DNA from: Leptogorgia sarmentosa
Lineage: Eukaryota
DNA: 64,000 bases
NCBI GenBank assembly: GCA_964658305.1
Contig: OZ210885.1
Span: 1,550,001 to 1,614,000, forward strand
Direction: 5' to 3'
Within the stretch, counting starts at the first letter, position 1. The number at the start of each line of letters is the position of its first letter. Both the position numbers and the translations under genes were made by a program. The notes under the pieces were generated by a model. The model saw only the letters and a list, made by a program, of their open reading frames with translations, made no database searches and was not told the origin of the DNA. Positions 509 through 64,000 of this stretch are shown here, piece after piece.

Positions 509-3500
509 ATGGATATAAAAGTCTATTTGTTGGCCTTCTTCATTGCATATACACTTCGAGCAGGAATTCGAATTGTCGCTGAAGACGAAACTGCTGGGAA
601 AAAGAAAATTGTGAATTTTTGTTTTAACGCAAGTCTCGAGGGTATGTGTGCGCGCTGCTGTGGTAATTAACAAACATTTTTCGGCTGCGCAGTCGTTTGT
701 CAGACATTTGAATGAATTGCAATGTACCACCTAATCATGACGTCATTTCAATTTCGTAGGTTACAGACTAAATGTGACAGTTTTGACGACAGAGCTGGCT
801 CCTAATTGGCTTGCCTGTGTGATAGAATGTGTTACGGAGCCTTGCTGTCGATCAATCAATTATAAAAACACACTGAACTTACGGAATGAACCAAATTGTG
901 AAATGTTGCACAATGTGGTCTATAATAATTCTCAGAAATATTTGGAAAGGAATTGTTCTTATAACCATGTTTTTCTTAATAATCCGCCAAAGGTAAAAAT
1001 TACTTCCGGAATAAATCGTGGAACAATAAATGAGATATTTCATTTTATTGTCCGTATAATTTATAGGAATACAATGGAACCTGCTTTTCGAAGTTCGCAA
1101 GTGGCCGTACAAAAGGTGAGGAAATGTTTACTGGCTAAGACAGCCAAGCGCGATGTATTTAAAATTTGGTAATTTCATCTCAATTTCATCGTCAAGGTTA
1201 CATTGGTTGTGCTGTCACTTGCTGTTACTTTTCTTATTAAAATTTCTTATTAGCAAAGCACGAGGTCTGTACAGAAAATGATTGGACTGAGCTCTTTTCC
1301 GTTCAGACCTAGCCCGTAAGGCGAGCTGCACAAGCTCAATTTGACGATTAATTAATTAATTAGAGGATAATTCTGAAAAGTTGACTATTTGAAATTATTA
1401 TATACACAAGCGCTGGATATGAGCTATTCTGCAATCTGATTGGTTCTCCACTAGCAGGATATTAGCTCATATCCTGCTAGTACAGAAATGTAAACAAAAT
1501 GGCTGAAAGAGCGAAGCTGGAATTGAAGTTTTCAACAGTTAAAAACGTATTTGCGACTGATTTAATGAATAAAATTCAAGAAGTTTAGTTGTAAATGTTT
1601 ATTGTGCAGTTATGAATCTGGAAAACCGGACTCGACGCTGTAATATTCATCGCTTGACTGAGTTGGATCGCTTGTTGCTGTTTGTTGACATTTTACAACG
1701 GTAAAATTTGTGTTGTACTTTCAAATGCAGAAAAAAACAGCTGAAAACTGTTGAAATTTAAAACTAGCTACAGTTTAAACGAAACGTCGACTATTTTAAT
1801 TCCGTAACTGTTGTTTTTTCCGTGCTTTTTGGCGTGTATTTATCAAGTAAAACTGTTTTTGTAAATATGTCGATTTCAAAGCGATAGAACACTTTGAAAT
1901 TATATTCAGTTATTAACTAAAATACAAATAAATTTTGAAGTTGTTTTTGTCCAGCGCTTGTGTACATAATAAAACAGTTATTCTGCTCACTCTCGTCGTA
2001 TATGACTGATAGTCGACTCGGCGCTACGCGCCTCGTCGACTATCAGCACATATACGACTCGAGTTCGCAAAATAACTGTTAATTGGTCTTTTCACGCACA
2101 CGATGCATTTTTTAACACCGTATGGTACGTAACTCGTCTTATTATATGGACAGCGGTATTTTATTGAGAACTAAAACACTCGTAGAACTCATACGCCACT
2201 ACATCCGGGATATGGTGCGCGTATTTTCCGTATGTCACGCTTAGGGGTGACATAACCTTCCCGCCCTTTTCGCTGTTTACAAATGGCTTCTACTTCAAGG
2301 TTTGTGAATTTAAGCGATATTAGTACGTTTTGCGACGAACAATAAAGCTACAATAAACTACAATAAAGCGGTATTTCATAATCTATATTTACTAAAGTCT
2401 AATTTTAAAGCCATTAATTGTCGTGTTTTAGACTGCATGTTTGCATTAAAAGGGTAGTTGTTGTGTATTTATGTAACTATGAATAAGTCCATATAATAAA
2501 CGAACTATTTAAGCCATGTTTTTAAACAATGTCCGCATTATTTTATAGCTCATGTTTTCGAATCAGAGATATTGAAGAATGAGTCACTGGAATTTTCAAG
2601 AAAGCTTGGAGAATGGTTGAATAAACCAGGAAATTGGAATGTTTGTTGGCGAGGCACAAGAGATGGAATGAAGCATGAAGCATTTCACGCAGGATGTAAC
2701 GGGAAAATTCCAACTCTGACAATTGTTAAAGTTATCAAGAACAACAAAAGTCTCGTATTTGGAGGATATGCCACAGAATCATGGGCTGGAGGTAAGGTGG
2801 AAATTACAATAAGCAATTTTAAGCAAAAAATACCTAATTAGTTGGTATTGTTAGTTTTGTTTTCCTCAAATTGAAGTCCAAACTGTCCTAAACGCTGAAA
2901 TGGACACGACATCGATTGAAAATACATCCATGTATTGTTTGCTATCTGACATACAATTTTAGGCCTAAAAGAAGAAGATCGATTATAACAAAAATAATCC
3001 ACTGAGTCTACTGTCTAAGTCACAAATTTCATTAATTAAATTTTATTACGACTTGGATTGGCATGGCATTCAATCCTGACCAAAACTCATCTCAAAGACG
3101 GCTAAAGACAGGAATCTAGTCCGGCTGTGTTCTAATATTATTCGCTAAATCTACCCTATCCCAACCCTAATCCTAACCCTAACCTATATATATAATAATC
3201 TATGGAACACAGTTGGACTAGATTCCTGTCTTTAGCATGCAGCTATTTAATTTGTGTGTGGCTCCGTCACTTTTGAAATTTGTTTGAATGCCAAAATTTG
3301 AGATTTCGGGCTGAGAGGTTTTTTCGGGTTGGTCACATAATTTTGAAAACGTCTAAATGTGTACCTTTAACAAGTTGATTAGTTTCTTCGCAAGAAAATA
3401 TTGAAAAAGCAATTTTACAACAGTTGCACAACATGCAGCTCGTTTAGCGTCATTTTCGTATTGCTATAAATGCTCAAAGTTTAGTTATTGGGAAGTTTTC

Positions 3501-3925
3501 AAAATGTAAGAATCACATGCAGATATGGTTATTACAGATTCCTAGAGGAGCGCTGGACTATTATATTCTCCTAGCAGGATATTTTATTTTTTATTTTGAC
3601 AGAAGGTGCGAGTGGTATTGCTGCTCCAGGATCGTTTTTGTTTTCACTGCGAAATAACGATGATCTGCCACCTTTCAAAGCTCCACTAAAAGACGAGAAT
3701 AGCACCTACGCAATTTTCCAGTTACCCGGAGAAGGGCCAATTTTCGGCGGTGGTTATGATTTGTTTATTAGCATATCCGGATCCACGACAAAATCCAACG
3801 CAAATTTCGGTGTAACTTACCAAGCGCCACCTGAATATGCCATTGGTGAAGCAAAGACCCAATCCCTTCTCGCAGGAAGCTTTGAGTTCACACCTACAGA
3901 AGTTGAAGTTCTCTCTTTAGTTTAA
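509..3925 (+). CDS. Secreted PAN/apple-domain + TLDc-domain protein, copy 1 (5 coding exons)
   Basis: Exons 509-641, 760-992, 1067-1115, 2549-2791, 3603-3925, all GT-AG with consistent phase (1,0,1,1). Hydrophobic leader MDIKVYLLAFFIAYTLRAG. PAN pattern CVIEC..CCRSINY..CEML. TLDc motifs WRGTRDG..FHAGC, FGGY, SFLFSL, GPIFGGG, terminal EVEVL. Confidence 0.85.
1392..2082. mobile_element. Non-autonomous element with asymmetric subterminal inverted repeats and a long 3' hairpin
   Basis: ttattatatacacaagcgctgga (1395-1417) is inverted at 1950-1972. Imperfect hairpin 1973-2080 with apex ctcggcgctacgcgcctcg. Confidence 0.7.
3101..3236. mobile_element. Small TIR element (MITE) with internal telomere-like tract
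   Basis: About 33-bp inverted ends gctaaagacaggaatctagtcc.. / ..ggactagattcctgtctttagc enclosing accctaatcctaaccctaacc. Confidence 0.65.
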
Positions 3926-4974
3926 AACCTCACTGATCCTCTTTTGGTTAACAGAAACATACTTGGCGGACAAATTATAAAATAAATATAGTTTAACATA
4001 AGTCTTCAAAATATCTAAATTATAGTGTTACGTACAATTGTAAACTGATTTTAAAACATAATACCAACATTAATGTTTATATGATCGTCCAAAAGAGAAT
4101 TCCGTTGGGCAGAACACGAGTATCAAGCCATATAAATATACACACAACCCCTTCCCCCACACCCCCAAAATTAACGCTGCATGCTACACGCCCCGATTGT
4201 AAACTGACTCGACTCGTAAAAAAATGTGTAACTTTGTAACAAAAACTTTTACCTATAGAGACAATTTAGCTCCTTTTGAAGTTTTGCTGCTCTTTCATCT
4301 CTGCATTTAATTCCTAATTCGATTATTTTCATGGTCAATTACTACTCAGAAAACGTAAACAAAACATTATTCCTTCAAATTTCGTTCAAACGTATTAATT
4401 TTAATTGAATGCCGGGTTCTCATTGACAACATGCCATAAATACGAATTCACCGCCGTCATTATTTCGTTAACGTCAAAGCGCCGCACCGCAGGTTTGCTT
4501 AGCTAATAAAATGCGTTTCAGAGTCGACTACCTGTTTTTGCGCTAAAGCTGAACTGAATCTAGGGTAAACGCTTGCATTGTAAACTAGACTGAATATTTC
4601 CTTGCACGAAGCCATTACATCAATTAGCAGCAGCAGCAGTAGATTTATTCGACCTCCCCGTATAGAGCTTTTCAGGTTTAAATTACAATATGGTGTTATG
4701 AAATTTACAATTACATCCATAATGCATCAATAACTCTAAAAGTAAGTGTCTTTCAAGATTGAAAAAAAACCCTTTCCCAGCAGACAATTTTGCGAAATAT
4801 AAGAGAAAACAAACTCCGAAAATGAACATCTTGTAAACTCAAGATATGAGCTGTTATAAAAACAAAACACAATATTCAAGGTAATATTTCGACTCTATTT
4901 CAAAGTCATTGTCAAACCTATAACTAATTATTTACAAGCTTTCAAGGTTGAAATGTTTGAAAACTTCTCATGAA

Positions 4975-5390
4975 GACTTTTCTTAACCGCTTTCTTAAAT
5001 GGTGGTAAAGATTATAATTGTTTCTTCTTCTTCCAGCGTATTACAAAGCTTGCACTCTCTAGCAATGAAAGCGTGTTCAGTGTTTTTTTATACGACATAT
5101 TTGCGCAGTCTCGATTCGTCTTTGCTTCTTGTGTTATAAGCTGTCTTCTTAGCTACTACAAAATTATTACAGATATTCTGGTGCAAGATTCTTGATAAAC
5201 TGGTAAGTCATTACTGCAGCATCTCTTGGATAGAGTTTTTCAGGGACAGGAATCAGAGAATTTTTCAGAGCATTTTGGTTCTCCAGTAAATATGCGGGCA
5301 AAGCAAAGTTTTGAATATGTTGTAGCATTTGGATGTTCGACTTGGTTGTTGAAGACCAAATCTAGGACTTACTTAGGGTGTTTCCCAAGT
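4975..5390 (-). mobile_element. Decayed non-LTR retrotransposon (L2/CR1-like) ORF2 3' remnant
   Basis: Minus-strand fragments QHIQNFA, PVPEKLYPRDAAVMTYQFIKNLAPEYL and AFIARECKLCNTL resemble the post-RT C-terminus of LINEs. Interrupted by stops and frameshifts. Confidence 0.55.
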
Positions 5391-7680
5391 CTTTAACGTG
5401 ACCAACCGGTTTAAGAATTTTCTGGAAAGAATGGGACTATGTCGTCAAATGTCATATTTTCAGTACACGACGAAATTATGTCATAAAATAATGTTGTACA
5501 TGTGTTTTGGTGAGCACATAGCTCCAAAATTGGCAGCTACCGAACAGATATGACGACTTCATCAAACGGTTTTGACCAATCAAAACTCGGCTTAAATTAT
5601 TTTACTATAATATAAACAATAAATTGACAGCTGGTTCATATCTGCTGGCTTTGAATATTTAAATGCTCCAAAATAAAACATTTACTTTACCCTAATGCGG
5701 ACAGTTCATAAAACGTCAGTCTCATTTCACACCACCTGCTATTTCATACGAAACTTACTGCAAACTTTGACATCAAGCTAACTTCCGTAAGTTTATCGTG
5801 TTATTGGTTTTTACTTCATTCCAATGTATATACAGCAGTTAGTTTAGTGCGAACTTTCCAACATATATTTCTTGCTCGCAGGTTATTTGAACACTTTTAT
5901 AGTGTATACGTAGTTGACATAATAATATGAATGCATGCAGATGGCTGATAATGATTGCAAGTATCTACAGTGAAATTTTAGCGCCACTAATACTTGATAC
6001 CAGTGTGTTTGTGCGTATATAAAAATTTTGGAGTATATTCGAGTTCTTTAATATGAATCTTTTTTAAATTCCGTTTCACGTTTATATTAATCCATGCGAT
6101 CAAATTTGAAGTTTAAAAAAATAAATTATGTTAAACTAATTATGTTTCAGTTAAAGCCTGAATAACCAAAATATCAGCTCGTACTGAAGAACAGAAAATA
6201 TTAAGCTACATGCATTTTGATGAAAAATGATGTGAAAGATCGAACACGGCTGCCATGCAGCTGGCTTTTAATAAATATAATGAAAAATGGACTTTCGTTC
6301 ATGAAACATTTTTCTGTATCAGCGAATATTCATAAATTTTGAATATTCCTGCAGGTTTGTGAACACGAATAATTATTTTTTGAACATTTTCCCTCCCAAT
6401 TATATATAGACGTTAGCTGGGAACGCTAATGAAAATTACTCATATGCATTTATAAATTGGCAAATTCTGTTTTGTCGGTTCTGCCAAAGTGCAAAATTCA
6501 TATTTCATAATTGGCGTAATTTTTGTCAATTGCTTTGAAGCCTGAAAGCACTCAATCATCATCACAAACTGTGCTTTCTAGCTATTCCTAGCCCAAACAT
6601 TGCTAAAACAAAACGGACGAACAATAACATGCAGAGAGAATATGTAAACATAACAGCCTGTAGCAGTTGAGCACAAAATACGTTTCAGTTCCGTAGTTGA
6701 GCTAGGATTTCTAGACACTTTACTGAATTAATACATCTCAATTGTCCGAAGTTATTGATTTAGTTGAAAGACCAAATATGGGTCATCCTTCTGGAAGGTT
6801 TTGGGCTGCATGAGAATTCTTAGACAAACCTGTGTATCATTACGAAGAGAATTTGACACAGTCCGTCTTTCTTTTGATCAAGTAGTGACCAATGATTTGT
6901 TATACTGTAAGTAGAATTAATTCTTAGTTCGATATCCTGTCGCTGTTTGTAGCTACAGCTAACATGAGCATCGTTTCTATTGTGCATATTGCCAATATGG
7001 AAATATTACATCCGGGGATGTAACATGCACAAGACTGAATAGCACGAGTTATAAAACGAGCACTGGTCATACGAAGGCGTGATAAACTCGAGAGTTATTA
7101 CAGAGTTATTACACGAGAAACCATTACTTGAGACAATCGCAGTTTTCAGTTTCTCCTAGCTAAAGTTGAACACCGGGAGACTTTCCTTGCTTACTTATAT
7201 TTCACATCTTGCAATGATAACGGTTTGAACATTAAAGAAAAAGCTATACTATTATTTTATGCACGTACGTATATATTATATTATCAGTTATGTTGCATGT
7301 TGCATGCTTTAATAAAAGTATTTGGTATTTCACGTAGCCTCATGTGCTTTTTAAAAACACACAATGATATATATCAATTCTGGTCTTGTGATTGGAATAA
7401 AGCGCCCTACGCTTGTTTGTGAATAATTCAAACCACAAAACTGGTTGACACTTCCAACGTTTGAAGTGGAAGGGCAATAATCCATTCCCAGAAGTGAAGG
7501 AAACAATATAGCTAAGTATGCAGTCAAGAGGAATGCAGCGACGTTTTCAACCAACCAGTGAGCCAGGGCATGAATCACAGGCGTGTATGTATCTTAACTC
7601 TGACTTGATTGTTTGCTTCATAGGGAAGATAATAATCTGCCAGAATACAGTAAAAAGTGGTGGTTAGCTTGAAGGTAACG

Positions 7681-9957
7681 ATGCACATAAAGTTCCATTT
7701 GTTGATCCTTTTCATGGTGTATACGATACGAGCGGTAATTGTCGCTGACGAAAATGATAATAAGAATGAAGGAATGATAAATTTGTGTTACAACTCAAGT
7801 CTTGAGGGTAAGTAGCTATACCGACTGTGGAAATCGTTAGTTAAACCTTTGTCCATACTCGACTCTTACAGTAGTCGTGCCTCATACATTTTTCAAAAAT
7901 GTAACATTTGAATGAATAGCAATCATGTCGTTATTTTTATTACCCAGGTTACAGACTTAAAGTGACAGTTTTGGTGAAGAAATTGGTTTCTGATCGGTTC
8001 ACCTGTGTTATGGAGTGTGCCACAGAGCCATGTTGCCGCTCAATCAATTATAAAAAGACGCTGAACTTGCGGAATGAACCAAATTGTGAAATGTTGCATA
8101 ATCTGGTCTATAATATCTCTCAGGAACTTTTGGAAGCAAATTCTTCTTATAATCATGTTTATCTCGGTAATCCACGAAAGGTAAAAATATTTCACAACAT
8201 GAAATTGCTTATTTTGCTTCTGCACACACATGCATGCATGTCTAAGATTTTCAAAGACCTCAAATACCACTGTCTCGCTCTTCGAGTCTAATTTTTCTAT
8301 CATTTTCATGTGAGTAAATTAGTTGTTATTTATGGTTCATCTCCTCAAACAATAAAGAAAATTTTTTGCCTTGTGTAGGATTTTAACCAAACCTGCTTAC
8401 CTGAACCCAAAAGTCCCGATTTGAAAGGTGAGTCATGAGTGATCCATAGCCCTAACATTTTGTTTCCTACTTGGACCATTTTTAGTTTCTCTGAGTATAT
8501 AGCGAAAGAATAAGACAGGCATCCTTCATGTCATCATGTCTCATTATAAACAACAGATGTTTTCCTTTATTATTATCTAGTAATGGAATTAATTCCGTAA
8601 ATTTTCTTACGTTTATGTCTTGTATTGGTTGCTTGTAGAGTATTTCCACATATTTTCGGTAGAGTATTTCCATGTAGGCTATCGTTGAAATATTGGTAGC
8701 TGCACACGCTGCAAAAAATGATCAATTTTCTTAATAAGAAACAATTTAAATAAATTTGAGAGCCCATGCATGGTCTCCCTCAATTAAATGAACCTATTGA
8801 TTTGCTTCGAGCTCGCTCTTGTTTGATTTCATTCAGAAAATAGGAAACAGTAGCTTCTGCTACTCCATATAGTTATCCACATGTTAAAAATACTCTCAAC
8901 AGTCAACTTGATAGTTTGCCAATGGCTCTTTAACCAAGAAACCATTCACCACTAAACTATATTTAACCATGTTTTAAACACTGTGCTTATAGATCACGTT
9001 TTTGAATCAGAGATATTGAAGAATGAGTCACCGGAATTGTTAGGAAAACTTGGAGAATGGTTGAATAAACCGGGAAATTGGAATGTTTGTTGGCGAGGTA
9101 CAAGACATGGAATGACACCTCAATCTTTTCACGCAGGTTGTGACGGGAAAATTCCAACTCTGATGATTGTTAAAGTTATCACGAACAACAAAAGTCTCGT
9201 ATTCGGAGGATATGCCACAGAATCCTGGGCTGGAGGTTAGAATGAAAATATTACATCATAAAAAATTCTCCCCAACTGGAAAGCGAGACATTTTTAGTTT
9301 CGTTGTGTAGAAATGTATTATTTAGCGACAAATTTAAAGTGCCGATATATAAATGAACATGCAAGTAATACACCCAGATAATATCCCGTGGTAAACTGTA
9401 TCCCTCATGTCAGAATTCATTTTAATCTTTCTGATAGAAAATATTTTTTTCACTAATAGAATTTGTTTTTTTTACTTGCATCTGTGCACATGCATTCCAC
9501 TTCAAATATTAATTTTTCATATATTTCAATATTCAATATTTTTTAATACTAGAGAACAATAGGAGGACACTTTTCCTTTATCGCAATTAGACCCGATAAT
9601 TATGAAGTATGATAAAGAGTTTAACAGGAGATTTTTGTGTTTTTGACAGTCGGTGATACTCCTGCTCCAGGATCGTTTTTGTTCTCACTTCGTAACAATG
9701 ATGATCTGCCGCCTTTCAAAGCTTCGCTGAAGGACGAGAATAGCCCATTCGCAATTCAACGACAACCCAATAAGGGACCAGTGTTTGGATATGATTTGAT
9801 TATGATGAAGAACGAGGATAAGTATTCCGGCGCAGATTTTGGACTTACTTACCAAGCGCCAAGTGGCTACGAAAGTGGTGTAACAAAGACCCAATCCCTC
9901 CTCGCAGGAAGCGCTTCTTTCACGCCAACAGAAGTTGAAGTTTTATCTTTGAATTAA
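7681..9957 (+). CDS. Secreted PAN/apple-domain + TLDc-domain protein, copy 2 (5 coding exons)
   Basis: Exons 7681-7807, 7948-8180, 8379-8427, 8993-9235, 9650-9957, GT-AG, same phases as copy 1. Leader MHIKFHLLILFMVYTIRAV. PAN exon, 49-bp linker exon, TLDc split over two exons. Confidence 0.85.
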
Positions 9958-12674: not shown

Positions 12675-15600
12675 ATGCATTACAAACAAATGTGTTTGGC
12701 TATATCGTTTGTTTTGGTCTCATTGTCATTCGTTGTGTTATCGCTATTAGAAAAGAACGTCGTCTACACATACGCAACGTTTTACGGTAAGTGTATTGCC
12801 TTATCGTCCATCATGAAGCGAAGGAGATATCCTGTTTACACAACGCAAAAGATTCTGGATTCGTAATAACGTGTTTGGGATGATTTGGTATCGGTTACTA
12901 TTGTATTTGTAATGCCGTTTACACTACAGAGCATGATCATATCCGATACAAAAATAACCCCGATAGAGTTAGAGTGTGAATCCGAGAGCAACACTCGTCT
13001 ATAGCCTCAACGCTTTCCAGAAGAATCTTAATGAATTATATAGTTACTTGTACAGTTTCAATCCGCCAAATCGTCGAATTCGTTCTTTGTTCTCAATACG
13101 TGATCCGTACGCCTGAAAAACAGAAGAATCCATTTCACGAATCCGGAATCTTCAGCCTTGGTGTGAATGGGTTGTAGCTATATGTCTATGCGGGATAAAT
13201 CAATCACGGCTATAATCATCGCCAGGATGCACTTACGCAGCCTCGACGATCTCCTGTGGAGAATCCCAGTTATGAAATCATCTTTCTTTTAGCCAGTCTG
13301 TCGTATTTATCATCTCGTGTTAGTCACACGACTCGTCCGACGATGCGGACGTCTCTGCGTAAAGCTGATGTTACACTGGACGATTGTCGACGACGATTCG
13401 CAATGGAATGAAGTTGCACGAGATTTTGACTGGTTTGGCAGCCCGTTGCGATGCGAATTGTCGTTGAAAATCATTCCGTATAACATCAGCTTGAGGGGTG
13501 GATGGAAGATGATTTATAACACATCTTTTTCACGTGCTTTCACGTACCTGAATGAAATGAAATTACACAGTTCAAGAAGTATCAACGAAGAATTGCGCTC
13601 GTGTCTTGCGAAATATACCAAGGAATGAGAAGCGCGAATGGTATTGCACAAACACCGAAACACATGTGTGCAATTTTCATTGATACTTCGAGAACAAATT
13701 TCCTATTAATAGCTGATTTTTAATACCATGTTCAAAATTGGCAATGAATGCCGGATAAAGTGTGTTCCGAAAAAAATGTCACTAACAAAATAGGGAAACA
13801 AGAAATTCGCAGTGTTGTAATGACTTGTAAGCATCAGCTGCTTGGCAAAACAAAGGTTTTTATTCATGTGTCGCGAATACTAAAATCTCAGGTGAAGCAG
13901 AAACTCGGAAATGTAGCTTTTTTTTCATGCCAACATATTTTCTATCAATTTTTCAACGATTTTCATTTTTCCAAAATTCCGTAATAACGTTGCTACATTT
14001 TTATAAAGTGGGAAATTTAGAAAAACATTAATAGCGTCAAAATCAGACCCATAACTCTAAATTCAGAAGGCGATATTTCTGTGTTGTGGCTATGAATGTT
14101 CATCAAATCAATAGCAAACAAAATATCCTTAAAACATTTCACATTGAAATAAAAGTATAAAACGGCAATGACTATCTTTCAATTTTCATTGGAGTGACAC
14201 TGATTTTTTCACACACTCTTTCTAATTGTTTTAGCTGTTTTAAAATTCTACTCATGCGCGCATGCAGCTGCGAGCCGTGAGGTAAAAAAAATATTTACAC
14301 ATGCGCATGCTGTGTAATTAATGTATAATTCTTGTATTGTATACCTTTTGACAATCAAATCAGCATCAAAGGAATCACAATGATATTTAATTATATGAGC
14401 GGTATTTTGCCAACATAAGAGCAAATTTTATAATTTTCAATATAGTATACTTCGAGAAAGAGAGAAATTTTTCTATTAACATCATTGTAATACATATTCA
14501 GTAAACATTCAGAAATTTCCATAATTACATTGGCTGCGGCCGCAAACTTTTTAACGAAGACCCTCAGGCAATACTTTCCCGTACAGTCCTCGCACTCGTT
14601 TAATAAGTCCTTAATATTAAAAAGTCTCCTCATTCTTAGGATATAACAGAGTCGAAAAGCAAGAGGAAAATAAATTTCTTCAAAAAACGTCGACTTCTGA
14701 GAAAATGCTTTGTCGTTCGTTACCAGAATATTACAATCACAAAAACCTTAATCTGAATCCAAAAACTGTGAACGATGTCGAGACGATGCTGATTTTCATT
14801 GGCTATCCAAGAAGTGGACACTCCCTGATTGGTTCGTTACTTGATGCACATCCAAATGTTGTCATAGCAAATGAATATGATATTTTAAGCAGTTGGGAGA
14901 ACTACACAACAAAGCACCGTAATAAACAATATTTATTTGAACAACTGTATACAAATAGTTATGTCGAGGCTCATGAAGGTGACAGATCTTCCAAAGATTG
15001 TGTTCCAAAGACAAAATATAAATATTTGATTCCCAATCAATGGCAGGGAAAATTCGATGGGAAAATTAAGGTTAGTGTCCCCTGCATAGCCTGAGTGTGT
15101 TGTGTTATATGATGCAGTTGGTGAATGAATGCTCGCTGTTGACTCTCCTTCCGTCGCTGTTCAGGGGTCGACGTAGGAAGCGGAGGAGCCACGGGCCCCC
15201 TCTCCCCAATGTTCACATCGTGGGCCGCTCCCCCTCGAAAAAAATCATGGATTTCAAAAAAAAATATTAAAGCCACACCTTAGTCAACAATTAGTCAACT
15301 TAGTCTTTGTATACCCAAAGAAGCCAATTAAAAACTCGAGTTTGGACTAAACAAAATTTTCTCGCTCGGCGCAAACCATGGTGGTGGCGACTGGTAAGGT
15401 TCGCCCCCTCCCCCCAATGTTGAAAACGTTCCTACGTCCCTGAAATAGGCCACCATTTCATGTGAAGCGCTGGTGCCAGAATTCAAATTTGAATGCCCTG
15501 ATGAGCGCATGCAGGTCAAATAAAGATCATAAAGAACAAGTGTTACAATGCCTGCTGAAATTCTAAGCTATAAATGTTTTAAAGGCTATTGTGCGTTTGC

Positions 15601-17435
15601 TATAACTGCTAGCTAGCATGGGCGTACGGGCCGGGGGGGGGGCACGGGGGGGCCTGTGCCCCCCCAAACCGTTCACGGTCGGGCAATTAAGCTCGAATCG
15701 TTCGGGCAAACATAACTCTATCATAGTTGATAGAATATTAACTTTATAAGACAATATAACATCAACAATACGATGAAAATCATTATCCTCTAAAACATCC
15801 TATAAGAAGTATTCTAATTCCAAAGCTCAAGTATTTCAGATCGAATATGTATTACATAACGAAAGAGGTATAATATGACACCTTTAAAATGTCATTTCCG
15901 ACGATCTAGAGACCCAAAATTTTTAAAATTTTCTCGCTCGGCGCCAACCATGGTGGCGCCTCGTGAGCTTCGTCCCCTCCTTATCTGTCAGCCTCCCCCC
16001 CCCTCCCCCCCCACTTCAAATGTCGTTCCACAGGTCCTGTCGGGCAAACAATAATGTGCCCCCCCAAGCAAGATAGGGCCCGTACGCCCATGCTAGCTAG
16101 GGATTCAGCCTCGGTTTCCTTTTCACTGGTCAACATATTTTGTGGGCACAGTATAAAAGATACAGTAGTCCAACTCATTGTTTTTTTGTAAGCTGTATTC
16201 GTCACTCAGCAAGTGCCCTAAACAGAAGCAGTCACCCCCCTGACATTTGAGTATTGCCATTTGAGTTGGATTACTGTATCTTTTATACTGTGGTGTGGGC
16301 TTGCCGGAAGGATATTGATAAGTAAGTGATCCATATATATTTTAGGTTATTGGTGACAAAAAGGGCGGCAAAACCACGGCATTGTTTCAACGTTCCCGAA
16401 AATACTGGCAAATTTTTGGAGAAATACTGCAAGAAGTAAATGTCCCCATCAAGTTTATCCATGTCGTCCGTAACCCATTTGACAACATTGCGACGATGTT
16501 GCTGCGCAAGGAGTTTGGAAATCATTTGAATTGGACGAACGTTTTTGAATCACCTGTAAGTATGAATTTTGTACCGGATACAGTATATAATATTGGAATA
16601 CAGTTTTTTTGCAAAACCGTGCTTTATTGATTTTTGGTCGCGCCGATTTTGCGCTGTTGAGGGACTGGGAATAGGCTACGAAATATAGTACGACTACAAG
16701 ATAGTATTTAGTTGGAAGAAAAAATTTCCCATCCCAATAAAAATGGCTGAACCTTACATGAGATTTGTGGCTTAAAAGTGGTACATTATGCAACAAATCC
16801 AACAGGAAATGGCAGTGGGATTGACGTTTGAAAAAAATATGTGTAATCTCAGCAACAAACTTCAACACACGGCCAGTATTAGGTAGCGAATAAACATAAC
16901 AACATCAACAAGCAGCAAAGTCTTACCATGGGCAACCCAAAGATATGTGATATGAACTCGCCCCATTCCTCTTCCATTAAACGCGCGCCGCATTTTTAAA
17001 ACATTTCTACTTCATTTGTATCGAATTTGTTACATCTGTCCCAACATTCTCATAAAAATAATTGTAGATCCGTTACCTCGGTTTTGAATTTAATTTCTTT
17101 TTAATATATAGATCCATGTACGTAACGAAACGTTTTTTAACTGCATTAAATATCGCATGAAGATGGCGTGGACCAACGTTAATCTCATCCGAAAATTTCG
17201 TGATAGAGTGCACACAGTAAAGAGTGAAGATATGGTCAAAAATCCAGAAATTCAACTGCGAAAAATATGTGAATTTCTGAATATAAAATGTTCAAAAAAA
17301 TACATAACTGATTGTATCAGTACTATCAACAGTGAAATATCAAGATCAAGAAACGGTATTGTTTGGGACAAGGACGTCAAAGATTTTTTAGTTTATCATA
17401 TGGAACAAATCCCTTTTTATAGGGATTATTTATAA
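12675..17435 (+). CDS. Type II membrane (Golgi-type) PAPS-dependent sulfotransferase, 4 coding exons
   Basis: Exons 12675-12786, 14640-15070, 16346-16555, 17112-17435 join in phase (1,0,0). N-terminal TM anchor CLAISFVLVSLSFVVLSLL. 5'-PSB loop FIGYPRSGHSL. 3'-PB motif FIHVVRNPFDNIAT. C-terminal EDMVKNPEIQLRKICEFL. Confidence 0.85.
13565..13712. repeat. Long imperfect hairpin, probable end of a hairpin-type non-autonomous element
   Basis: gaagtatcaacgaagaattgcgctcgtgt ... acacatgtgtgcaattttcattgatacttc inverted arms in sulfotransferase intron 1. Confidence 0.45.
15162..15442. mobile_element. Degenerate hAT-like MITE
   Basis: Ends cagggg..gacgtaggaa / ttcctacgtccctg with GC-rich subtermini. 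No clear TSD. Confidence 0.5.
15617..16092. mobile_element. hAT-like MITE with 8-bp TSD
   Basis: TIR catgggcgtacgggc / gcccgtacgcccatg, flanked on both sides by ctagctag (15609-15616, 16093-16100). Confidence 0.85.
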
Positions 17436-31100: not shown

Positions 31101-31938
31101 ATCCAGCTGGCCTGCTAAACTGTGCAAACAATTACGGACCACTCAACTCTCTCAATACTTCCTCAATGCATTCATTGTGAAAAGTACAGAGAAATGTCAT
31201 TTAATAAAAAGACATTTATGAACAGACATAGCACATAATCAGTTGTAGGTTTTATGTTCCAAAAATAATATTCCTAGCTTGAAATTGTATTTGGCGATCT
31301 TTTAGAAGGGAAGCAATTAATCCACACTTCTTGTTATGTCAATATTATTAAACGAGATCAAAGGCAGAGATATAATGGCAAAAAACACACCTAATTTCGA
31401 ACACAGTTGAAAACCAATATCAAATATACGCGGGGTTAAGCTCGCGTATTTATGTTAACTAATCTCACATGTAATATATACACGGGTATCGATGTATAAG
31501 GTCATGGTTTACAACATAAATATAACACTACATTGTGAAATTATCTCAATTATGCAATATTTAATAGCGGGCTGTTATTCAATATTTTAATGTGTCAGAG
31601 ATTAAATTATTCCCATAGTAAAGCATTCAATTTAAAATACAGATAAAGGAGTAGGGCTGTAAAGACTAAATTAGTATAAAACTATGGTAATGAACGGATA
31701 TACTATCATTGTATTGACATGATCAAAAAGTTGCGCACCTATGACCATCGGCATATATGTAGACTCCTTTCCCGTATTTTCTCGATTTTCTCCAACCGCC
31801 ATCGTACATATCGCCGTTTGGATATAAATACACACCCTGGCCATGTCTTTTTCCGTTTTTTGTTTCTCCTTTGTATGATTTTACAGTGACAAAATCCTCG
31901 TTCACGCTACACTGATCTTTGCTTTGTGGACTTCCCAT
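28110..31938 (-). CDS. MORN-repeat protein with basic low-complexity C-terminus (3 coding exons)
   Basis: Exons 31739-31938, 29672-29800, 28110-28464 join in phase 2/2. MORN repeats YKGETKNGKRHGQGVYLYPNG, YDGGWRKSRKYGKGVYIYADG and partial LDGYFYHDEYIG. N-terminus MGSPQSK. Confidence 0.75.
28672..28910 (-). mobile_element. LINE (CR1-like) ORF2 3' end remnant in MORN gene intron
   Basis: QKSYLSRSTRLLNTLP..FK..YY..DPRTWKSIC..C resembles the C-terminal tail of non-LTR ORF2. Confidence 0.5.
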
Positions 31939-32101
31939 TTTATTGTTGTTATGACTTCGTTCAAGAAGGGTATTTGGGGGTAGATGGGGCTAATGGGGCT
32001 ATTGTTTGGAGATGAAAAATTCGAATTCGGAATGGCGGACGTTACGCCAATCTTACGCGGATAAGATGGTAAAGTAGCGGACGGCAACATAGAATGATAT
32101 A

Positions 32102-47202: not shown

Positions 47203-49664
47203 ATGCATATCATAAAGTTGCATTTGCTGAGTTTTTTCATTGCATTCACATTACAATCACTAATTGTGGCGGTAAATTTTTGTTTTAACGCAAGTCTCGA
47301 GGGTACGTATTCGTGACGTGAAAATAGACAAACGTTTGTCCACCGTCCTTGGTCGTGATTGTATTCAGATGCCTGCTTCTTTCAAACTTCATGATGTTGT
47401 CTAAATTTCATAGGTTACAGACTTAATGTGACAGTTCTGACGACAAAAGTGGTTCCTGATTGGCTTGCCTGTGTGATGGAATGTGTTACAGAGCCTTGCT
47501 GTCGATCAATCAATTATAAAAATACACTGAACTTGCCGAAGGATGAATCAAATTGTGAAATGTTGCATAATGTGGTCAATAATATGTCTCAGAAATATTT
47601 GGAAAGAAATTGTTCTTATAACCATGTTTTTCTGAATAATCCACAAAAGGTAAAAATAATTCTCAACTGCAAATTAACAAATTTTAAACCTCTTTCAAAT
47701 TAATCCTCGATACCGCTCAATGCAAAGTTTAGCTTGGGGTACATGCAGGTACAGCGCCCGCGGAGAGTGTTTGCAAGTGGTGGGGCTGTGCCCATGAGGG
47801 GAATTTGGAGTGCTTAGATCGTCGGAAATGTCTCTCATATATAGCCTACGTGGTCTCATATAGCCTACGACGTTTACTAATTGATAGATATTCCATCCAA
47901 AATACTTGTGTTTCGGAATTGGAATGTTTTGATAGCTGTACTATTGATAAGACGCCAGCACTAAATGGCCACAACAGCCCACACGCTTGTTAATTTTTTA
48001 ATTAAGTTTCCATGGCCTGCTGGCGTCATTTCCTAATACTAAAATTGTAGACATAATTATTAACGTGCATTATGCAAATTAAGTGACAAGACATGCGCAA
48101 TGAAAAATATAAAAATTTTTAAATTTTGCGTGAAGTTTTCGAGGATAAAGTAGATTTTTTTCATTCATGTAGGAATTTAATGGGAGCTGCTTTCCAAAAG
48201 GTAAATGTCTAAAATGTGACAACGTTTTGTTTGGTCATCTCACTTTTAGTTACAGATTTGATCATGAATAATTTTTAGAACTCTTTTTCCATTCTAGCGA
48301 AGGTTAGTATATTTCCCTAAATTTAGTTATGTGAAATTATCAAAATTAATATGAAATGATGATTGTAATTATATGTTATATGCGTTTATATATTATCTTC
48401 CCGTATGATTTTTTGTCTATTCAATACATATTGCCTTTAATACGTTAAAAGTCGGGATATCTAGCTACTGTATAGTGATTTCCAGATTTTTTTCGACGGT
48501 TGTAGAAATCCTCAAAAGCTAAAAAATTGCAAACATGGGCCTGGCAATAGACAATAGTTGAAAGAAATGGCTACATTTAAATATCAAGGCTAAGTCTGAG
48601 TCAGACCGATCAACACAGGTTGTTTTAGAGAGTTAATTTCTTTCATGCATGACATCATGCGAGGTGCTTTCTTCAAACGTCACACTAAACTTAGGTAGGG
48701 AAGCTAACCTGGGATTTTCAAAAGCAATATACTACTTCCCTGCCGGAAAAATGCAGAAAAGTTGCGATAATTATGTTATTTATGGGTATTCAGCGAAATT
48801 TGATATAAAATTTCAATTCTCGATTCAACAGTACGTAAAAGTTGTGCTGATTGGCTGAATAAAAGTGCAGCCACAAATACAACACTTCAGGATGGTGTCT
48901 ATTCTATAAACCCCGAGGGACAGAAGAACACAGGTTTCACTGTCTGGTGTGACATGCATACAGATGGAGGAGGTTGGACAGTGTTCCAGAAACGAAAAGA
49001 TGGATTGCAAAACTTTAATCGCAATTGGGCATCGTATGAAAACGGGTTTGGTGAAAGCGACAGTAATTATTGGCTTGGTCTACATAGAATTTACAGCATG
49101 ATAAAAGATCAAAGCCAAATTCTAAGAGTTGATCTTCAAGATTGGGAAAATAACAGCCGATACGCAGTGTATGGCGTCTTTTCAATTGGGAGTAAAGATG
49201 TCAAGTACAAAATAAAAATTGGAAATTATTCAGGTGGAAAATTTTTGATTATATTCAAAATAAATATCTTGCCCTTTACCACTTAACAACACTTACGACA
49301 AACGGGGGCAGGGTATTTGCTCATCTTTGGCTTTGCCATAGAGGGCAGAATTTTAAACTGGCAGATAATTATTGTCTTTTCATTTCTTGTAGGTGATGCA
49401 GGAGACTCTCTCAGCCATCAGGATAATAAAAAATTCAGCACTTACGATAACGATAACGATAACGACGGCAATGGCCGTAACTGTGCAGCTTTGTTTCAAG
49501 GTGGATGGTGGTTTCGTAATTGTCTGCAGTGTAACCTGAATGGCCGGTACATCCAAGGAGGAAATCATTCATTCGCACGAGGCACAGGAGTTCAATGGCA
49601 GAAATTTAAAGGGGACAAATATTCCTTGAAATACACCGAAATGAAAATACGACCAAAAAACTAG
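47203..49664 (+). CDS. Secreted PAN-A + fibrinogen C-terminal domain (FReD, ficolin/tachylectin-like) protein
   Basis: Exons 47203-47302, 47414-47649, 48173-48200, 48832-49233, 49393-49664 in phase 1,0,1,1. FReD motifs VWCDMHTDGGGWTVFQKRKDG, YWLGL, KFSTYDNDND..NCA..GGWWF..C..NLNG, TEMKIRP. Confidence 0.9.
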
Positions 49665-55081: not shown

Positions 55082-58031
55082 ATGGCAAATTTTGGGAGAG
55101 TTCTTTCCGTCCTCATGTACCTGCTGTTGGTACACAGATGTTATTCCATGAGATCAAGTACTTGGTTCAAGCTCGTCATTTCAGGTTATTCAATTTCCCT
55201 TAGCATTGTCTGCAGTTAGATTTATCCGAAATAAATGCAAAAGGACTTGGTATTACTGAACGGAAATTTCTCCCAACACCGGTCAATAAAGCAGGGTTGA
55301 AAACAACAAAACTCGATCCCTGCAAACAAAATGTGTGCGAACTTCAAATTTTTAACTTTTGTGTTCTATGAACGATAAGAATGGATGGGAAGTGTGAATT
55401 CTTAGAATTTTTCTGTCAATAAAGGATGTTGAAAATTACGAATCTTCAGTTCTTGAGAAGCAAAAATTCGGTTTGGAAACGTTATATATTACGAATTGCT
55501 GTCAGCAACCAAGTGGTTTAAGAGGGGAGAAGTTGCACGAAAATTTTGATCGGAATTAAACATAAAACTGCACCATTAACATCGATATTTTTCTTCCAAT
55601 TCTGACAGGTCATCGCCTCACTGATAATGTAATCCGTGAACTCAGTACACTGAGTCTTTTGGAGTGTACTTTACACTGTATGAGAAAACCTTCTGAATGC
55701 AAATCAGTCAACTACAGAGTTAAACAACGTCAAGATTATTCCATAAATTGTCAACTCATTAATGCCACAAAAACAACACATCCTCAGAATTTGTTGGAAG
55801 ACAGAAACTACGACAACCATGAACGCATAATAACAACGGTAAATCTTCGTAGATTTTGCACTAACATTATATGAGATACAGTGGCGTCGGATACAGTGGA
55901 AACCAGATTTTTCCGAAACAAATATTTTACATTTACCAGTGCCTGACAATGAAGCGGGGGTGTTACGGTATTTTGCACGATTAAGGGCATGGTCACGAGT
56001 GTTTTAGAAATGTGTCCATGGCCTGCTTGCGTTATTTCCCGCATTTTAACGACCTAAACCCGATATCGAAACTGTAGACATATTAACTTGCATTAGACAA
56101 ATTAAGTGGCAAGATATGTGCAACTAATTATTGAAAAATAATAAATTTGCGTGAAGTTTTGGAGGATAAATTAGTCTTTTCGTTCATGTAGGAAAATAAT
56201 GGAAGCTCTTTGCCAAAGTTCCTAAACAGCAAAATAGAAGGTGAATGTCTAAAATGTGATAACGTTTTGATTGGTCTTCTCACTTTTAGTTAGTAGCTAC
56301 TTAAAGATTTGATCATGAATGATTTTAGAACTCTTTTTCAATTCTAGTGAGGGTTTGTTTCCCTGCATAACCTAAGTTTAGTTATGTGAAATTATAAAAA
56401 ATAGTCTCATTTGAAATCATCATTGCTATTAGTGCATGCCAGAAATCTCTATAAAACAATATAATTATTTTGTGATATCCTATACCTTAACCACACCGTT
56501 TTGTACAAAATCTTTGCTATTTGGGCCGTATATCTTCCCGCAGGGCCGTACACAGAGGGGGGACAGGGGGGGCAGGTGCCCCCCCCCAGGGAAAATTCAA
56601 CGGTTCGTTTTTATTATTGATATCCACTGAAATTCTCTCACATTCCTCCCAAAGAAAGACCACTGCCCCCCCAGTTAAAAATTCCTGTGTACGGCCCTGT
56701 CTTCCCGCATGATTTTTTTCTTTATTCAATACATCTGGCTTTTTGCAAAATCTTCCACACATCCAGCTGGGGCCGGTTGTTAAAAGTCGGGGCTATGACT
56801 ACTGCATAGTGATTTTATTCGACCGTTGTAGAAATCCTCAAAAGCTATAAAATTTCAGATATGGGCCTGGCAATAGACAATAGTTGAAAGAAGTGGCTAC
56901 ATTTAAATATATCAAGGCTAAGTCTGAATCAACAGGCTGTTTTAAAAATTTGGATAACATTTTCCAAACTTCGAACAACCGATCGACCAACCCCTGGTTA
57001 ATTTCTTTTATGACATCATGCGAGGTGCTTTCTTCAAACGTCACACTAAACTTAGGTTGGGAAGCTAACCTTGGATATTCAAAAGCAATATACTACTTCC
57101 CTCTCGGAAAAATGCAGAAAAGTTGAGATAATTATGTTATTTATGTTATTTATGTGTATTCAGCGAAATTTGATATAAAATTTCCATTCTCCATTCAACA
57201 GTACGTAAAAGTTGTGCTGATTGGCTGAATAAAAGTGCAGCCACAAATACAACACTTCAGGATGGTGTCTATTCTATAAACCCCGAGGGACAGAACAACA
57301 CAAATTTCACTGTCTGGTGTGACATGCATACAGATGGAGGAGGTTGGACAGTGTTCCAGAAACGAAAAGACGGATTGCAAAACTTTAATCGCAATTGGTC
57401 ATCGTATGAAAACGGGTTTGGTGAAAGCGACAGTGATTATTGGCTTGGTCTACATAGAATTTACACCATGATGAAAGATCACAGCCAAATTCTAAGAGTT
57501 GATCTTCAAGATTGGGAAAATAACAGCCGATACGCTGTGTATGGCGACTTTTCAATTGGGAGTGAAGATGTTGAGTACCAAATAAAAATTGGAAGATATT
57601 CAGGTGGAAAATTTTTGATTATATTCAAAATCAATATCTTTCCCTTTGCCACTTAACAACACTTACGACAAACGGGGGCAGGGAATTTGCTCCTCTTTGC
57701 CTTTGCCATAGAGGGCAGAATTTTAAACTGGCAAATAATTATTGTCTTTTCATTTCCCGTAGGTGATGCAGGAGACTCTCTCGACTATCACAGTGGTTGG
57801 AAATTCAGCACTTACGATAACGATAACGACAACGATGACGGCCGTAACTGTGCATCTGTGTTTCAAGGTGGATGGTGGTTTCGTAGGTGTCTGGAAAGTA
57901 ACCTGAATGGTCAGTACATCCAAGGAGGACGTCATTCAGGCAAAGCAGGCACAGGAGTTCAATGGCAGAAATTTACAGGCGATCAATATTCCTTGAAATA
58001 CACCGAAATGAAAATACGACCAAAAAACTAG
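55082..58031 (+). CDS. Secreted PAN-B + FReD protein
   Basis: Exons 55082-55184, 55609-55838, 56192-56240, 57202-57603, 57763-58031 in phase 1,0,1,1. Leader MANFGRVLSVLMYLLLVHRCYS. PAN GHRLTDNVI..CTLHCMRKPSECKSVNY..CQLI. Complete FReD. Confidence 0.9.
56541..56699. mobile_element. hAT-like MITE with 8-bp TSD
   Basis: tcttcccg|cagggccgtacacag ... ctgtgtacggccctg|tcttcccg. Single tcttcccg at the paralogous site ~48396. Confidence 0.9.
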
Positions 58032-62811: not shown

Positions 62812-64000
62812 ATGGCAAATTTAGGGAGAGTTCTTTCCGTCCTCATGTACCTCCTGTTGGTACACAGATGTTATTCCATGAGATCAAGTACTTGGTTTAA
62901 GCTCGTCATTTCAGGTTATTCAATTTCCCTTAGCATTGTCTGCAGTTAGATTTATCCGAAATAAATGCAAAAGGACTTGGCATTTCTGAAAGAAAATTTC
63001 TCCCAACACCGGTCAATAAAGCAGGATTGAAAACAACAAAACTCGATCCCTGCAAACAAAATGTGTGCGAACTTCAAATTTTTAACCTTTGTATTCTATA
63101 AACGATAAGAATGGATGGGATCGAAGTGTGAATTCTTAGAATTTTTCTGTCAATAAAGGACTTTCTAAATTCCTTGATGTTGAAAATTACGAATCGTGAG
63201 TTCTTGAGAAGCAAAAATTCGGTTTGGAAATGTTATATATTACGAATTGCTGTCAGCAACCAAGTGGTTTGAAGGGGGAGAAGTTGCACGAAAATTTTGA
63301 TCGGAAATAAACATAAAACCGCATCCATTAACATCGATATTTTTCTTCCAATTCTGACAGGTCATCGCCTCACTGATAATGTTATCCATGATCTCAGTAC
63401 ACTGAGTCTTTTGGAGTGTACTTTACACTGTATGAGAAAACCTTCTGAATGCAAATCAATCAACTACAGAGCTAAACAACGTCAAGATTATTCCATAAAT
63501 TGTCAACTCATTAACGCCACAAAAACAACACATCCTCAGAATTTGTGGGAAGACAGAAACTACGACAACCATGAACGCATAATAACAACGGTAAATCTTC
63601 GTAGATTTTGCACTAACATTATAAGAGATACAGTGGCGTCGTGGAAAGTGTTCAACAGGGGGACACAAAACCAGATTTTTCCGAAACAAATATTTTATAT
63701 TCAGTGCCAGTACCTGACAATGAAGCGGGGGTGTTACGGTATTTTGCACGACTAAAGGGTATGGTCACGAGTGTTTTAGAAATGTGTCCATGGCCTGCTT
63801 GCGTCATTCCCGCATTTTAACGACCTGAACCTGATATCGAAACTGTAGACATATTAACGTGCATTATGCAAATTAAGTAGCAAGACATGCGTAACTTATT
63901 ATTGAAAAATGATAAAGTTTGCGTGAAGTTTTCGAGGATAAAGTAGTTTTTTTCGTTCATGTAGGAATCTAATGGAAGCTCTTTGCCAAAGTTCCTAAAA
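62812..64000 (+). CDS. PAN-B gene, third unit, partial (FReD exons expected beyond the window)
   Basis: Exons 62812-62914, 63361-63590 and 63965->64000, near-identical to the 55082 gene with open frame. Confidence 0.85.

What the first reader, a model, noticed from the sequence alone, without database searches (positions are those of the whole stretch)
509..9957. Apparently secreted TLDc-domain proteins
Seen: signal peptide + PAN + TLDc with no TM segment. The terminal EVEV glutamate and FGG motifs are retained. The paralogs differ mostly in short segments (GMKHEAFH/GMTPQSFH; AIFQLPGE..SISGSTTKS/AIQRQPNK..MKNEDKYS). Known: characterised TLDc proteins (OXR1, NCOA7, TBC1D24, TLDC2, MEAK7, yeast Oxr1/Rtc5) are intracellular, linked to V-ATPase regulation and oxidative stress. 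Inference: TLDc co-opted as an extracellular binding module, or as a delivered effector.
Basis: partly seen in the sequence, partly recalled or inferred. Interest (0 to 1): 0.8.

Follow-up and report, generated by a model that had tools for sequence, protein, structure and literature searches.

The report
Secreted coral proteins with TLDc heads
Two intact neighbouring genes, likely of a soft coral, place a TLDc domain (known as a proton-pump regulator inside cells) at the end of a protein predicted to be secreted, in the slot where a nearby sister gene carries a fibrinogen-like domain, so corals likely use TLDc as a swappable outside-the-cell binding head whose target is unknown.

Summary
Confirmed and larger than reported. 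Two intact five-exon genes (326, 319 aa) encode predicted signal peptide + PAN + TLDc, with no later membrane segment. A third gene 37 kb away has the same front exons and intron phases but ends in a fibrinogen-like domain; its PAN exon is closer to gene 1 (211/233 nt) than gene 2 is (186/233). In corals the arrangement is a family: 82 of 120 listed homologues put TLDc last behind EGF, Ig/collagen or lectin domains, the collagen-Ig forms mirroring CniFL with the head swapped; 5 are TRIM-like and cytosolic. A 2025 Nematostella matrisome supplement lists six TLDc-ECM proteins (three quantified in mesoglea, one marking mucous gland cells, none among cnidocyte genes) without discussing them. Best reading: an interchangeable secreted binding head, likely for recognition in mucus or matrix; the ligand is untested, and positive selection was not shown (dN/dS 0.67 at variable sites). 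The delivered-effector idea has no support. This scan noted secreted or variable TLDc heads before on other DNA (Naegleria, unnamed eukaryotes, myxobacteria; unchecked). New variant of a known kind; interest 0.65.

The parts
509..641 (+). Gene 1 exon 1: start codon, predicted signal peptide (about residues 1-18), acidic/basic spacer, first PAN cysteine
   Evidence: no in-frame ATG in the 120 nt upstream, but the frame there is open
760..992 (+). Gene 1 exon 2: PAN/apple-like domain
   Evidence: Pfam PAN_1 E 0.0016, below cut-off; PAN fold in homologue P0027, Z 9.8 to plasminogen PAN
1067..1115 (+). Gene 1 exon 3: 49-nt linker with one cysteine; ends in the phase-1 junction to the terminal module
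2549..2791 (+). Gene 1 exon 4: first half of TLDc, with the Cys171/Cys188 pair
   Evidence: Pfam TLD E 3.3e-9
3603..3925 (+). Gene 1 exon 5: second half of TLDc, EVEV motif, stop; AATAAA/ATTAAA-type signal at 3981
   Evidence: Pfam TLD E 3.3e-4
7681..7807 (+). Gene 2 exon 1: start codon and predicted signal peptide; in-frame stop 28-30 nt upstream
7948..8180 (+). Gene 2 exon 2: PAN/apple-like domain
   Evidence: Pfam PAN_1 22.0 bits, above cut-off
8379..8427 (+). Gene 2 exon 3: 49-nt linker
8993..9235 (+). Gene 2 exon 4: first half of TLDc
   Evidence: Pfam TLD E 1.3e-10
9650..9957 (+). Gene 2 exon 5: second half of TLDc, two short deletions against gene 1, stop
   Evidence: 69% identity to gene 1 exon 5 by tblastn; no Pfam hit alone
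47203..49664 (+).
   Evidence: Pfam PAN_1 22.1 bits and Fibrinogen_C E 1.7e-37
55609..58031 (+). Gene 4, partial model: a different PAN exon (55609-55841), linker (56192-56240) and a second fibrinogen-like module (57202-57603, 57763-58031); candidate signal-peptide exon at 55082
   Evidence: Pfam PAN_1 E 1.7e-7

Best explanation
The two genes encode predicted secreted glycoproteins of an anthozoan family in which TLDc is an interchangeable C-terminal module, likely a binding head that works in mucus or matrix rather than on the V-ATPase. Shown: a signal-peptide-like + PAN cassette is joined through a phase-1 intron to either TLDc (genes 1, 2) or a fibrinogen-like domain (gene 3), and other corals put the same TLDc type behind EGF, Ig/collagen and lectin stalks. 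Inferred: the protein enters the secretory pathway; Cys171-Cys188 would form a stabilising disulfide; PAN, EGF or collagen-Ig would act as spacer, second binding site or multimeriser; a conserved TLDc core carries tolerant surface segments, two of which match the loops that mEAK-7 uses on the V-ATPase, and these would bind the outside ligand. I commit to microbial or other non-self surfaces as the likeliest ligand class (about 0.4 on its own), with paralogues differing in specificity. Rough odds: secreted 0.9; binding head 0.75; immune-type recognition 0.4.
For: Head swap in the window: same exon phases, PAN exon gene 1 vs gene 3 211/233 nt against gene 1 vs gene 2 186/233. The same PAN head sits on fibrinogen (P0024, P0032, P0025), F5/8C (P0034) and EGF-TLDc (P0027, P0033) in named octocorals. 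Of the best 120 listed hits (300 with E<=1e-10), 45 have EGF, 35 Ig, 2 other extracellular domains before TLD. TLDc ends within 15 residues of the C-terminus in 49 of 50 EGF-class and 35 of 35 Ig-class proteins; a crude signal-peptide rule passes 32 of 48 Met-starting EGF-class proteins, 6 of 37 unclassified and 0 of 5 TRIM; 38 of 50 EGF-class proteins carry PAN. 27 of 31 Met-starting Ig-class proteins have a collagen repeat and 18 of 31 an N-terminal membrane-like segment, the CniFL layout (PMC5094078, passages). Cys pair in 51 of 52 EGF-class and 35 of 35 Ig-class domains and 12 of 13 domains of three non-coral signal-bearing proteins, against 4 of 79 other domains. FN2 or C-type lectin domains are inserted inside TLDc, just after the Trp217 position, in 5 of the coral hits. 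Gene 1/gene 2 differences fall at sites variable in 79 other coral domains (4/59, 17/59, 24/59 by entropy third; p 3.7e-6) while the core is purified (dN/dS 0.12). Nematostella: 3 of 6 TLDc-ECM proteins quantified in decellularised mesoglea (16, 16, 5 unique peptides), one a marker of adult mucous gland cells, 23.1% vs 0.2% (PMC12549020 supplements).
Against: No ligand or localisation data for these two genes. No positive selection: dN/dS 0.67 in the independently defined variable third; the 1.11 came from segments picked after the fact. Differences are not enriched in predicted coil (25 of 45 vs 84 of 177, p 0.23). The Cys pair is also in 5 of 5 cytosolic-looking TRIM proteins, and two unnamed proteins with a membrane-like segment (P0046, P0196) lack it, so it may mark descent and not secretion. 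The mesoglea run held 5,286 proteins, many suspected contaminants, and I did not check that the Nematostella TLDc domains belong to this clade. IQ-TREE leaves a single anthozoan origin unresolved. For gene 1 an upstream in-frame coding exon cannot be excluded from sequence. Sharing a slot with fibrinogen-like domains does not imply immunity; many such domains are developmental or structural (own knowledge).
Confidence: 0.62

Rival explanations
1. Structural or adhesive mucus/matrix component: TLDc binds a host ligand (matrix protein, glycan or another copy) and variation is relaxed constraint.
For: Detection of Nematostella TLDc proteins in mesoglea with life-stage shifts; dN/dS below 1 even at variable sites; EGF, TSP1 and collagen stalks are matrix modules.
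Against: Many paralogues on single contigs (Oculina, Montipora), heads mixed across EGF and Ig stalks in the tree and use of the same domain type on TRIM scaffolds fit recognition families better than single structural proteins. This rival shares the 'binding head' step with the best explanation.
Confidence: 0.2
2. Extracellular antioxidant or redox buffer, the classic 'oxidation resistance' reading, with the Cys pair as redox switch.
For: TLDc's historical link to oxidative stress (PMC13570293 section 1.2); TLD expansions in algae-bearing ciliates read this way (PMC11834939 passages); the Nematostella table bins four of them as stress/injury proteins; EVEV glutamate kept.
Against: The same review says the scavenger idea has given way to V-ATPase binding. 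A scavenger needs neither many stalk types nor lectin inserts. The table's bin appears to follow the domain name (my inference).
Confidence: 0.08
3. Delivered effector (nematocyst or mucus) that enters prey or microbial cells and blocks their V-ATPase.
For: Equivalents of Ncoa7 G815 and G845 are kept by alignment, and of L926 and E938 by offset from the C-terminus (PMC8608904). A TLD-annotated transcript is among the top nematosome transcripts (PMC4877951 Table 4).
Against: None of six Nematostella TLDc-ECM genes is in the 300-row cnidocyte ECM sheet; 'TLD' in a nematocyst proteome paper is only tolloid (PMC3627010). No translocation domain; S817 equivalent is Lys or Thr; loops matching mEAK-7 G276/H277 and P316/Q317 are variable or carry inserts; several N-glycosylation sequons. 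Membrane-anchored collagen-Ig relatives cannot be injected.
Confidence: 0.05
4. Gene-model artefact: PAN and TLDc exons belong to separate genes, or the product is cytosolic.
For: No transcript of this species was examined; gene 1 has an open frame upstream of its ATG; one Dendronephthya isoform lacks the signal peptide (P0035).
Against: Two paralogues keep phase and frame with dN/dS 0.45; RefSeq models with the full layout exist; a 385-aa signal + PAN + EGF + TLDc protein lies whole on 8 Logan contigs of 1.7-2.6 kb among 15 listed members, which I read as spliced transcripts; gene 2 and gene 3 have an in-frame stop between their best acceptor and the ATG.
Confidence: 0.04

Closest known systems
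Canonical TLDc proteins (NCOA7, OXR1/OXR2, mEAK-7, TBC1D24/Skywalker, yeast Oxr1p and Rtc5p)
   Same: Same fold: model of homologue P0027 aligns to NCOA7-AS 7obp at Z 19.8, rmsd 2.1 over 159 residues; core glycines and the terminal glutamate kept.
   Different: 15-20% identity; predicted signal peptide, PAN/EGF/collagen partners, extra Cys pair, multi-copy and variable; V-ATPase binding untested and topologically unlikely for a secreted protein.
CniFL (cnidarian ficolin-like: TMD + collagen + Ig + fibrinogen; PMC5094078) and, by recall, ficolins, collectins and invertebrate FREPs
   Same: Modular stalk with a terminal globular head; Ig-class relatives have the CniFL stalk; gene 3 shows fibrinogen-like and TLDc domains alternating on one cassette.
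   Different: Head is TLDc; the window genes have PAN and no collagen or Ig; no sugar binding shown. CniFL's own function is hypothetical in that paper.
Nematostella NvTLDcP-1 to -4, NvTSR, NvTSR-TLD (PMC12549020 supplements)
   Same: Cnidarian proteins that join TLDc to matrix domains; three found in mesoglea, one in mucous gland cells.
   Different: Best-hit names point to TSP1, Ig or EGF partners; orthology to the window genes not tested; the paper's main text has 0 occurrences of 'TLD'.
PAN/apple domains (plasminogen, HGF, factor XI apple 4, Sarcocystis lectin SML-2)
   Same: PAN fold, Z 9.1-9.8.
   Different: 12-15% identity; no protease or kringle; whether it binds protein or sugar here is open.

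Membership tests
TLDc domain (Pfam PF07534) | HMM match above the curated cut-off | tested here: met
   Exon 4 alone 37.3 and 41.9 bits, cut-off 24.5
TLDc domain (Pfam PF07534) | TLDc fold | tested here: met
   On homologue P0027 (50-60% identical to the window's TLDc exons): pLDDT 83.5, top Foldseek and VIA rows are TLDc. The window's spliced protein itself was not folded.
V-ATPase-binding TLDc regulators (OXR1/NCOA7/mEAK-7 type) | Residues whose change weakens V-ATPase binding (Ncoa7 G815, S817, G845, G896, L926, E938) | tested here: inconclusive
   G815 and G845 equivalents kept, S817 equivalent Lys/Thr (with PMC8608904); G896, L926, E938 mapped only by motif or offset. These positions are also kept or lost alike in unrelated TLDc domains.
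V-ATPase-binding TLDc regulators (OXR1/NCOA7/mEAK-7 type) | Cytosolic protein without signal peptide or extracellular domains | tested here: not met
   Hydrophobic N-terminus and PAN domain in both genes; prediction only, no SignalP or localisation
V-ATPase-binding TLDc regulators (OXR1/NCOA7/mEAK-7 type) | Physical binding to V1 | not testable with these tools
   Needs a pull-down; no coral V1 subunit was held
PAN/apple domain (PF00024) | HMM match and fold | tested here: met
   Gene 2 above cut-off, gene 1 just below; fold Z 9.8 on P0027
CniFL / ficolin / FREP | Fibrinogen C-terminal domain | tested here: not met
   Absent from genes 1 and 2; present in gene 3
CniFL / ficolin / FREP | Collagen and Ig stalk | tested here: not met
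   Absent from genes 1 and 2; present in 27 of 31 Met-starting Ig-class relatives
CniFL / ficolin / FREP | Binding to microbial or glycan ligands | not testable with these tools
   Needs binding assays
Diversifying immune recognition family | dN/dS above 1 at binding sites | tested here: inconclusive
   0.67 in the variable third, from one pair of genes only; site models on many coding sequences were not possible
Nematocyst venom effector | Cnidocyte expression or presence in discharged capsules | tested here: inconclusive
   0 of 6 Nematostella TLDc-ECM genes in the cnidocyte sheet; these are relatives by domain name, not shown orthologues

The most novel reading that the evidence does not exclude
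TLDc is an unrecognised pattern-recognition head of anthozoan innate immunity, alongside fibrinogen-like and C-type lectin domains: corals mount it on secreted PAN/EGF stalks, on CniFL-type collagen-Ig receptors and on cytosolic TRIM ligases, and bind microbes or symbionts with the surface that canonical TLDc proteins use on the V-ATPase.
Probability: 0.3. Interest if true: 0.82.

Novelty: new variant of a known kind. Interest (0 to 1): 0.65.

Why it matters
TLDc is currently described as a V-ATPase-binding domain of the cytosol. A large coral family that exports it and swaps it with fibrinogen-like and discoidin heads would make it a general binding scaffold, and would add a class of candidate receptors that surveys of coral immunity miss, because these proteins are annotated by their stalks ('adhesion GPCR E2-like', 'hemicentin-like', 'fibropellin-like'). 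Genes 1 and 3 are a natural matched pair (near-identical front end, different head) that makes the head's function directly testable.

Tried and rejected
No whole genome is held, so copy number in this species is unknown. Sequencing runs: no RNA holder listed; three contig sets of one sample cover 29-30 of 30 bins but may be the source and are not independent; allelic variation in exon 5 was not obtained. The one HMMER scan of cluster representatives used an alignment that included EGF and was swamped by EGF-repeat proteins; only a few TLDc rows were useful. The first fold (P0003, 7 rows) had pLDDT 36 and was dropped. PAN homodimer, suggested by an odd conserved cysteine: complex prediction gave no answer, score 0.02; not evidence either way. 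ESM Atlas gave only TLD clusters. dN/dS 1.11 from hand-picked segments was rejected as circular (vs 93). A Fisher test used hand-set counts and is not cited. FastTree's single anthozoan clade (0.90, 195 of 206 domains) was not upheld by IQ-TREE on 52 of 195. Corallium skeletome supplements: no TLDc annotation seen; 2 of 10 'TLD' hits were shown, both peptide letters, and 2 of 13 files were not searched. Literature searches with no description of secreted cnidarian TLDc in the listings; some searches were loose and mostly returned papers without the term.
Full report
Observation. The window is AT-rich animal DNA; the nearest named homologues are from the octocorals Dendronephthya gigantea and Paramuricea clavata, so I infer a soft coral. 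Two five-exon genes lie head to tail at 509-3925 and 7681-9957. All introns are GT-AG, the phases are 1,0,1,1 in both, and the products are 326 and 319 aa without stops. Exon 2 matches PAN_1 (22.0 bits in gene 2, 18.6 in gene 1; cut-off 21.4) and exon 4 matches TLD above cut-off in both; exon 5 matches weakly in gene 1 only. Hydrophobicity peaks at the N-terminus, with nothing membrane-like later. No SignalP was available. An in-frame stop lies between the best upstream acceptor and the ATG in gene 2 and gene 3; for gene 1 the upstream frame is open, so an extra coding exon is not excluded. dN/dS between the genes is 0.45 overall and 0.40 in TLDc, so both look functional.

The window holds its own control. 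At 47203-49664 an intact 345-aa gene has the same signal, PAN and linker exons and the same phases, but the phase-1 intron after the linker leads to a fibrinogen C-terminal domain. Its PAN exon matches gene 1 at 211 of 233 nt, better than gene 2 does (186 of 233), although the TLDc domains of genes 1 and 2 are sisters (100/96). Front ends and terminal modules have therefore been reshuffled or converted recently; direction is not known. In named octocorals the same PAN head precedes fibrinogen, F5/8C and EGF-TLDc.

The family. A TLDc-only profile found 300 proteins at E<=1e-10 among 7,991 scored candidates of 351-2000 aa, and listed 120. By their precomputed Pfam lists, 45 have EGF, 35 Ig and 2 other extracellular domains; 5 are RING/B-box (TRIM-like) proteins of Dendronephthya; the other 33 are TLD-only, other or unnamed. 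Named extracellular rows come from Oculina, Montipora, Porites, Pocillopora, Stylophora, Orbicella, Paramuricea and Dendronephthya, many on one contig per species; Acropora appears among cluster members. With five proteins from other calls the EGF class is 50: TLDc is terminal in 49, PAN precedes in 38, and a crude rule finds a signal peptide in 32 of the 48 that begin with Met, against 6 of 37 unclassified and 0 of 5 TRIM. The window genes are the EGF-less form of signal-PAN-(EGF)n-TLDc. In the Ig class 27 of 31 Met-starting proteins have collagen and 18 an N-terminal membrane-like segment; CniFL is defined as collagen + Ig + fibrinogen, mostly with a TMD (PMC5094078, passages). A 385-aa member lies whole on 8 short Logan contigs among 15 listed of 24 cluster members, which I read as spliced transcripts. 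The search was seeded with coral sequences and limited by length, so it does not give the family's range outside Anthozoa.

Structure. The homologue P0027, folded with 62 rows, gave pLDDT 83.5; residues 164-354 align to NCOA7-AS at Z 19.8, rmsd 2.1, and residues 24-111 to PAN domains at Z 9.1-9.8. A cysteine at gene 1 position 171 accompanies the widespread Cys188 in 51 of 52 EGF-class and 35 of 35 Ig-class domains and in 12 of 13 domains of three signal-bearing non-coral proteins, but in only 4 of 79 other domains, all from one protein. A disulfide is the simple inference, but 5 of 5 TRIM domains have the pair too, two membrane-like unnamed proteins lack it, and I had no coordinates to measure. 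mEAK-7 touches the V-ATPase with G276/H277 and P316/Q317 among others (PMC9263379, passages); by HMM alignment these match gene 1 positions 178-179 and about 221-222, in or beside segments that differ between the paralogues. In five coral hits an FN2 or C-type lectin domain is inserted just after the Trp217 position, where the window genes have their last intron. Contacts in the second half of the domain could not be aligned.

Variation. Using 79 other coral domains to rank sites, gene 1/gene 2 differences rise from 4 of 59 to 24 of 59 across entropy thirds (p 3.7e-6), and dN/dS from 0.12 to 0.67. The same segments vary across the family, but this is tolerance, not shown positive selection, and differences are not enriched in predicted coil (p 0.23). 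FastTree put all 104 anthozoan domains in one clade (0.90); IQ-TREE on 52 of 195 domains supported an octocoral and a hexacoral clade and left their union and the TRIM position open. No canonical TLDc sequence was in either tree.

Literature. A 2026 review has 0 occurrences of 'secreted', 'extracellular', 'signal peptide' or 'cnidaria' (PMC13570293, word counts, outline and section 1.2). Searches listed no paper on secreted cnidarian TLDc; the library lacks most subscription journals. However, the Nematostella matrisome paper (PMC12549020; passages, one results section in part, and supplements searched by term) tabulates six TLDc proteins with matrix domains; three were quantified in decellularised mesoglea with 16, 16 and 5 unique peptides, one marks adult mucous gland cells (23.1% vs 0.2%), and none is in the cnidocyte sheet. 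The main text never mentions TLD, the run held 5,286 proteins with suspected contaminants, and its Supplementary file 4 could not be read. A nematosome table lists one TLD-annotated transcript (PMC4877951, passages). PMC8608904, PMC8804929, PMC11834939 and PMC3627010 were seen as passages, PMC8329711 as its first part, PMC7853314 as a supplement search. Earlier unchecked notes of this scan report secreted TLDc heads in Naegleria, variable TLDc heads on TRIM/TRAF-like genes and TLDc nested in a bacterial C-type lectin domain; none concerns corals.

Verdict. Shown: two intact genes, the domain order, the head swap, the anthozoan family. Predicted: secretion, disulfide. Inferred: binding head, with microbial or non-self recognition in mucus or matrix the likeliest role and host-matrix binding the main rival. 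The effector reading is weak. The domains are known and the design is that of modular recognition proteins, but TLDc as the exported head, at this scale and in a CniFL-type layout, was not described in any main text I found: new variant of a known kind, interest 0.65.

Noticed in passing
window 55082-58031 and 62812-63590: A second PAN + fibrinogen-like gene with a different PAN exon, and a near-identical further copy of its front end at the window's right edge (duplicated blocks of 86-92% identity).
   Followed up: partly
P0264, P0266, P0270, P0273 (FN2) and P0282 (C-type lectin): Whole domains inserted inside TLDc at one loop, the reverse of the TLDc-in-lectin nesting noted earlier in myxobacteria.
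   Followed up: partly
P0253, P0258, P0259, P0268, P0289 (Dendronephthya): TRIM-like RING/B-box proteins ending in the same TLDc type, with the Cys pair; TLDc sits where TRIMs usually carry their target-binding domain (recalled).
   Followed up: partly
P0157, P0197, P0225 (unnamed records): Non-coral-looking proteins with signal-like N-termini and 3-7 TLDc domains, one with LamG/EGF and one with a MACPF match.
   Followed up: partly
window 601-1115, 7790-8427; P0027: The PAN region has seven conserved cysteines in gene 2 and P0027, an odd number that could allow an inter-chain bond; gene 1 and gene 3 have an eighth.
   Followed up: partly
P0002, P0005 (ENA contigs of 10.5 and 16.4 kb): Octocoral-type TLDc as one unbroken ORF, so the mid-domain intron of the window genes may be absent in some paralogues.
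   Followed up: no
window 1400-2450 and 4550-4900: High-copy repeats (very high contig depth) with a 108-nt palindrome at 1973-2080 in gene 1 intron 3; likely non-autonomous transposons.
   Followed up: no
window 35199-36014 (-): Single long ORF with a GTPase domain (MMR_HSR1 E 6.4e-9), possibly an immune-type GTPase.
   Followed up: partly
window 40735-42474 (+): Cysteine-rich exon with a signal-like start and no Pfam hit, followed by an exon with a membrane segment and a PPSY motif.
   Followed up: partly
window 14621-17435 (+), 19243-19897, 31723-31989 (-): Sulfotransferase-like gene, a tandem repeat array and a MORN-repeat exon.
   Followed up: no
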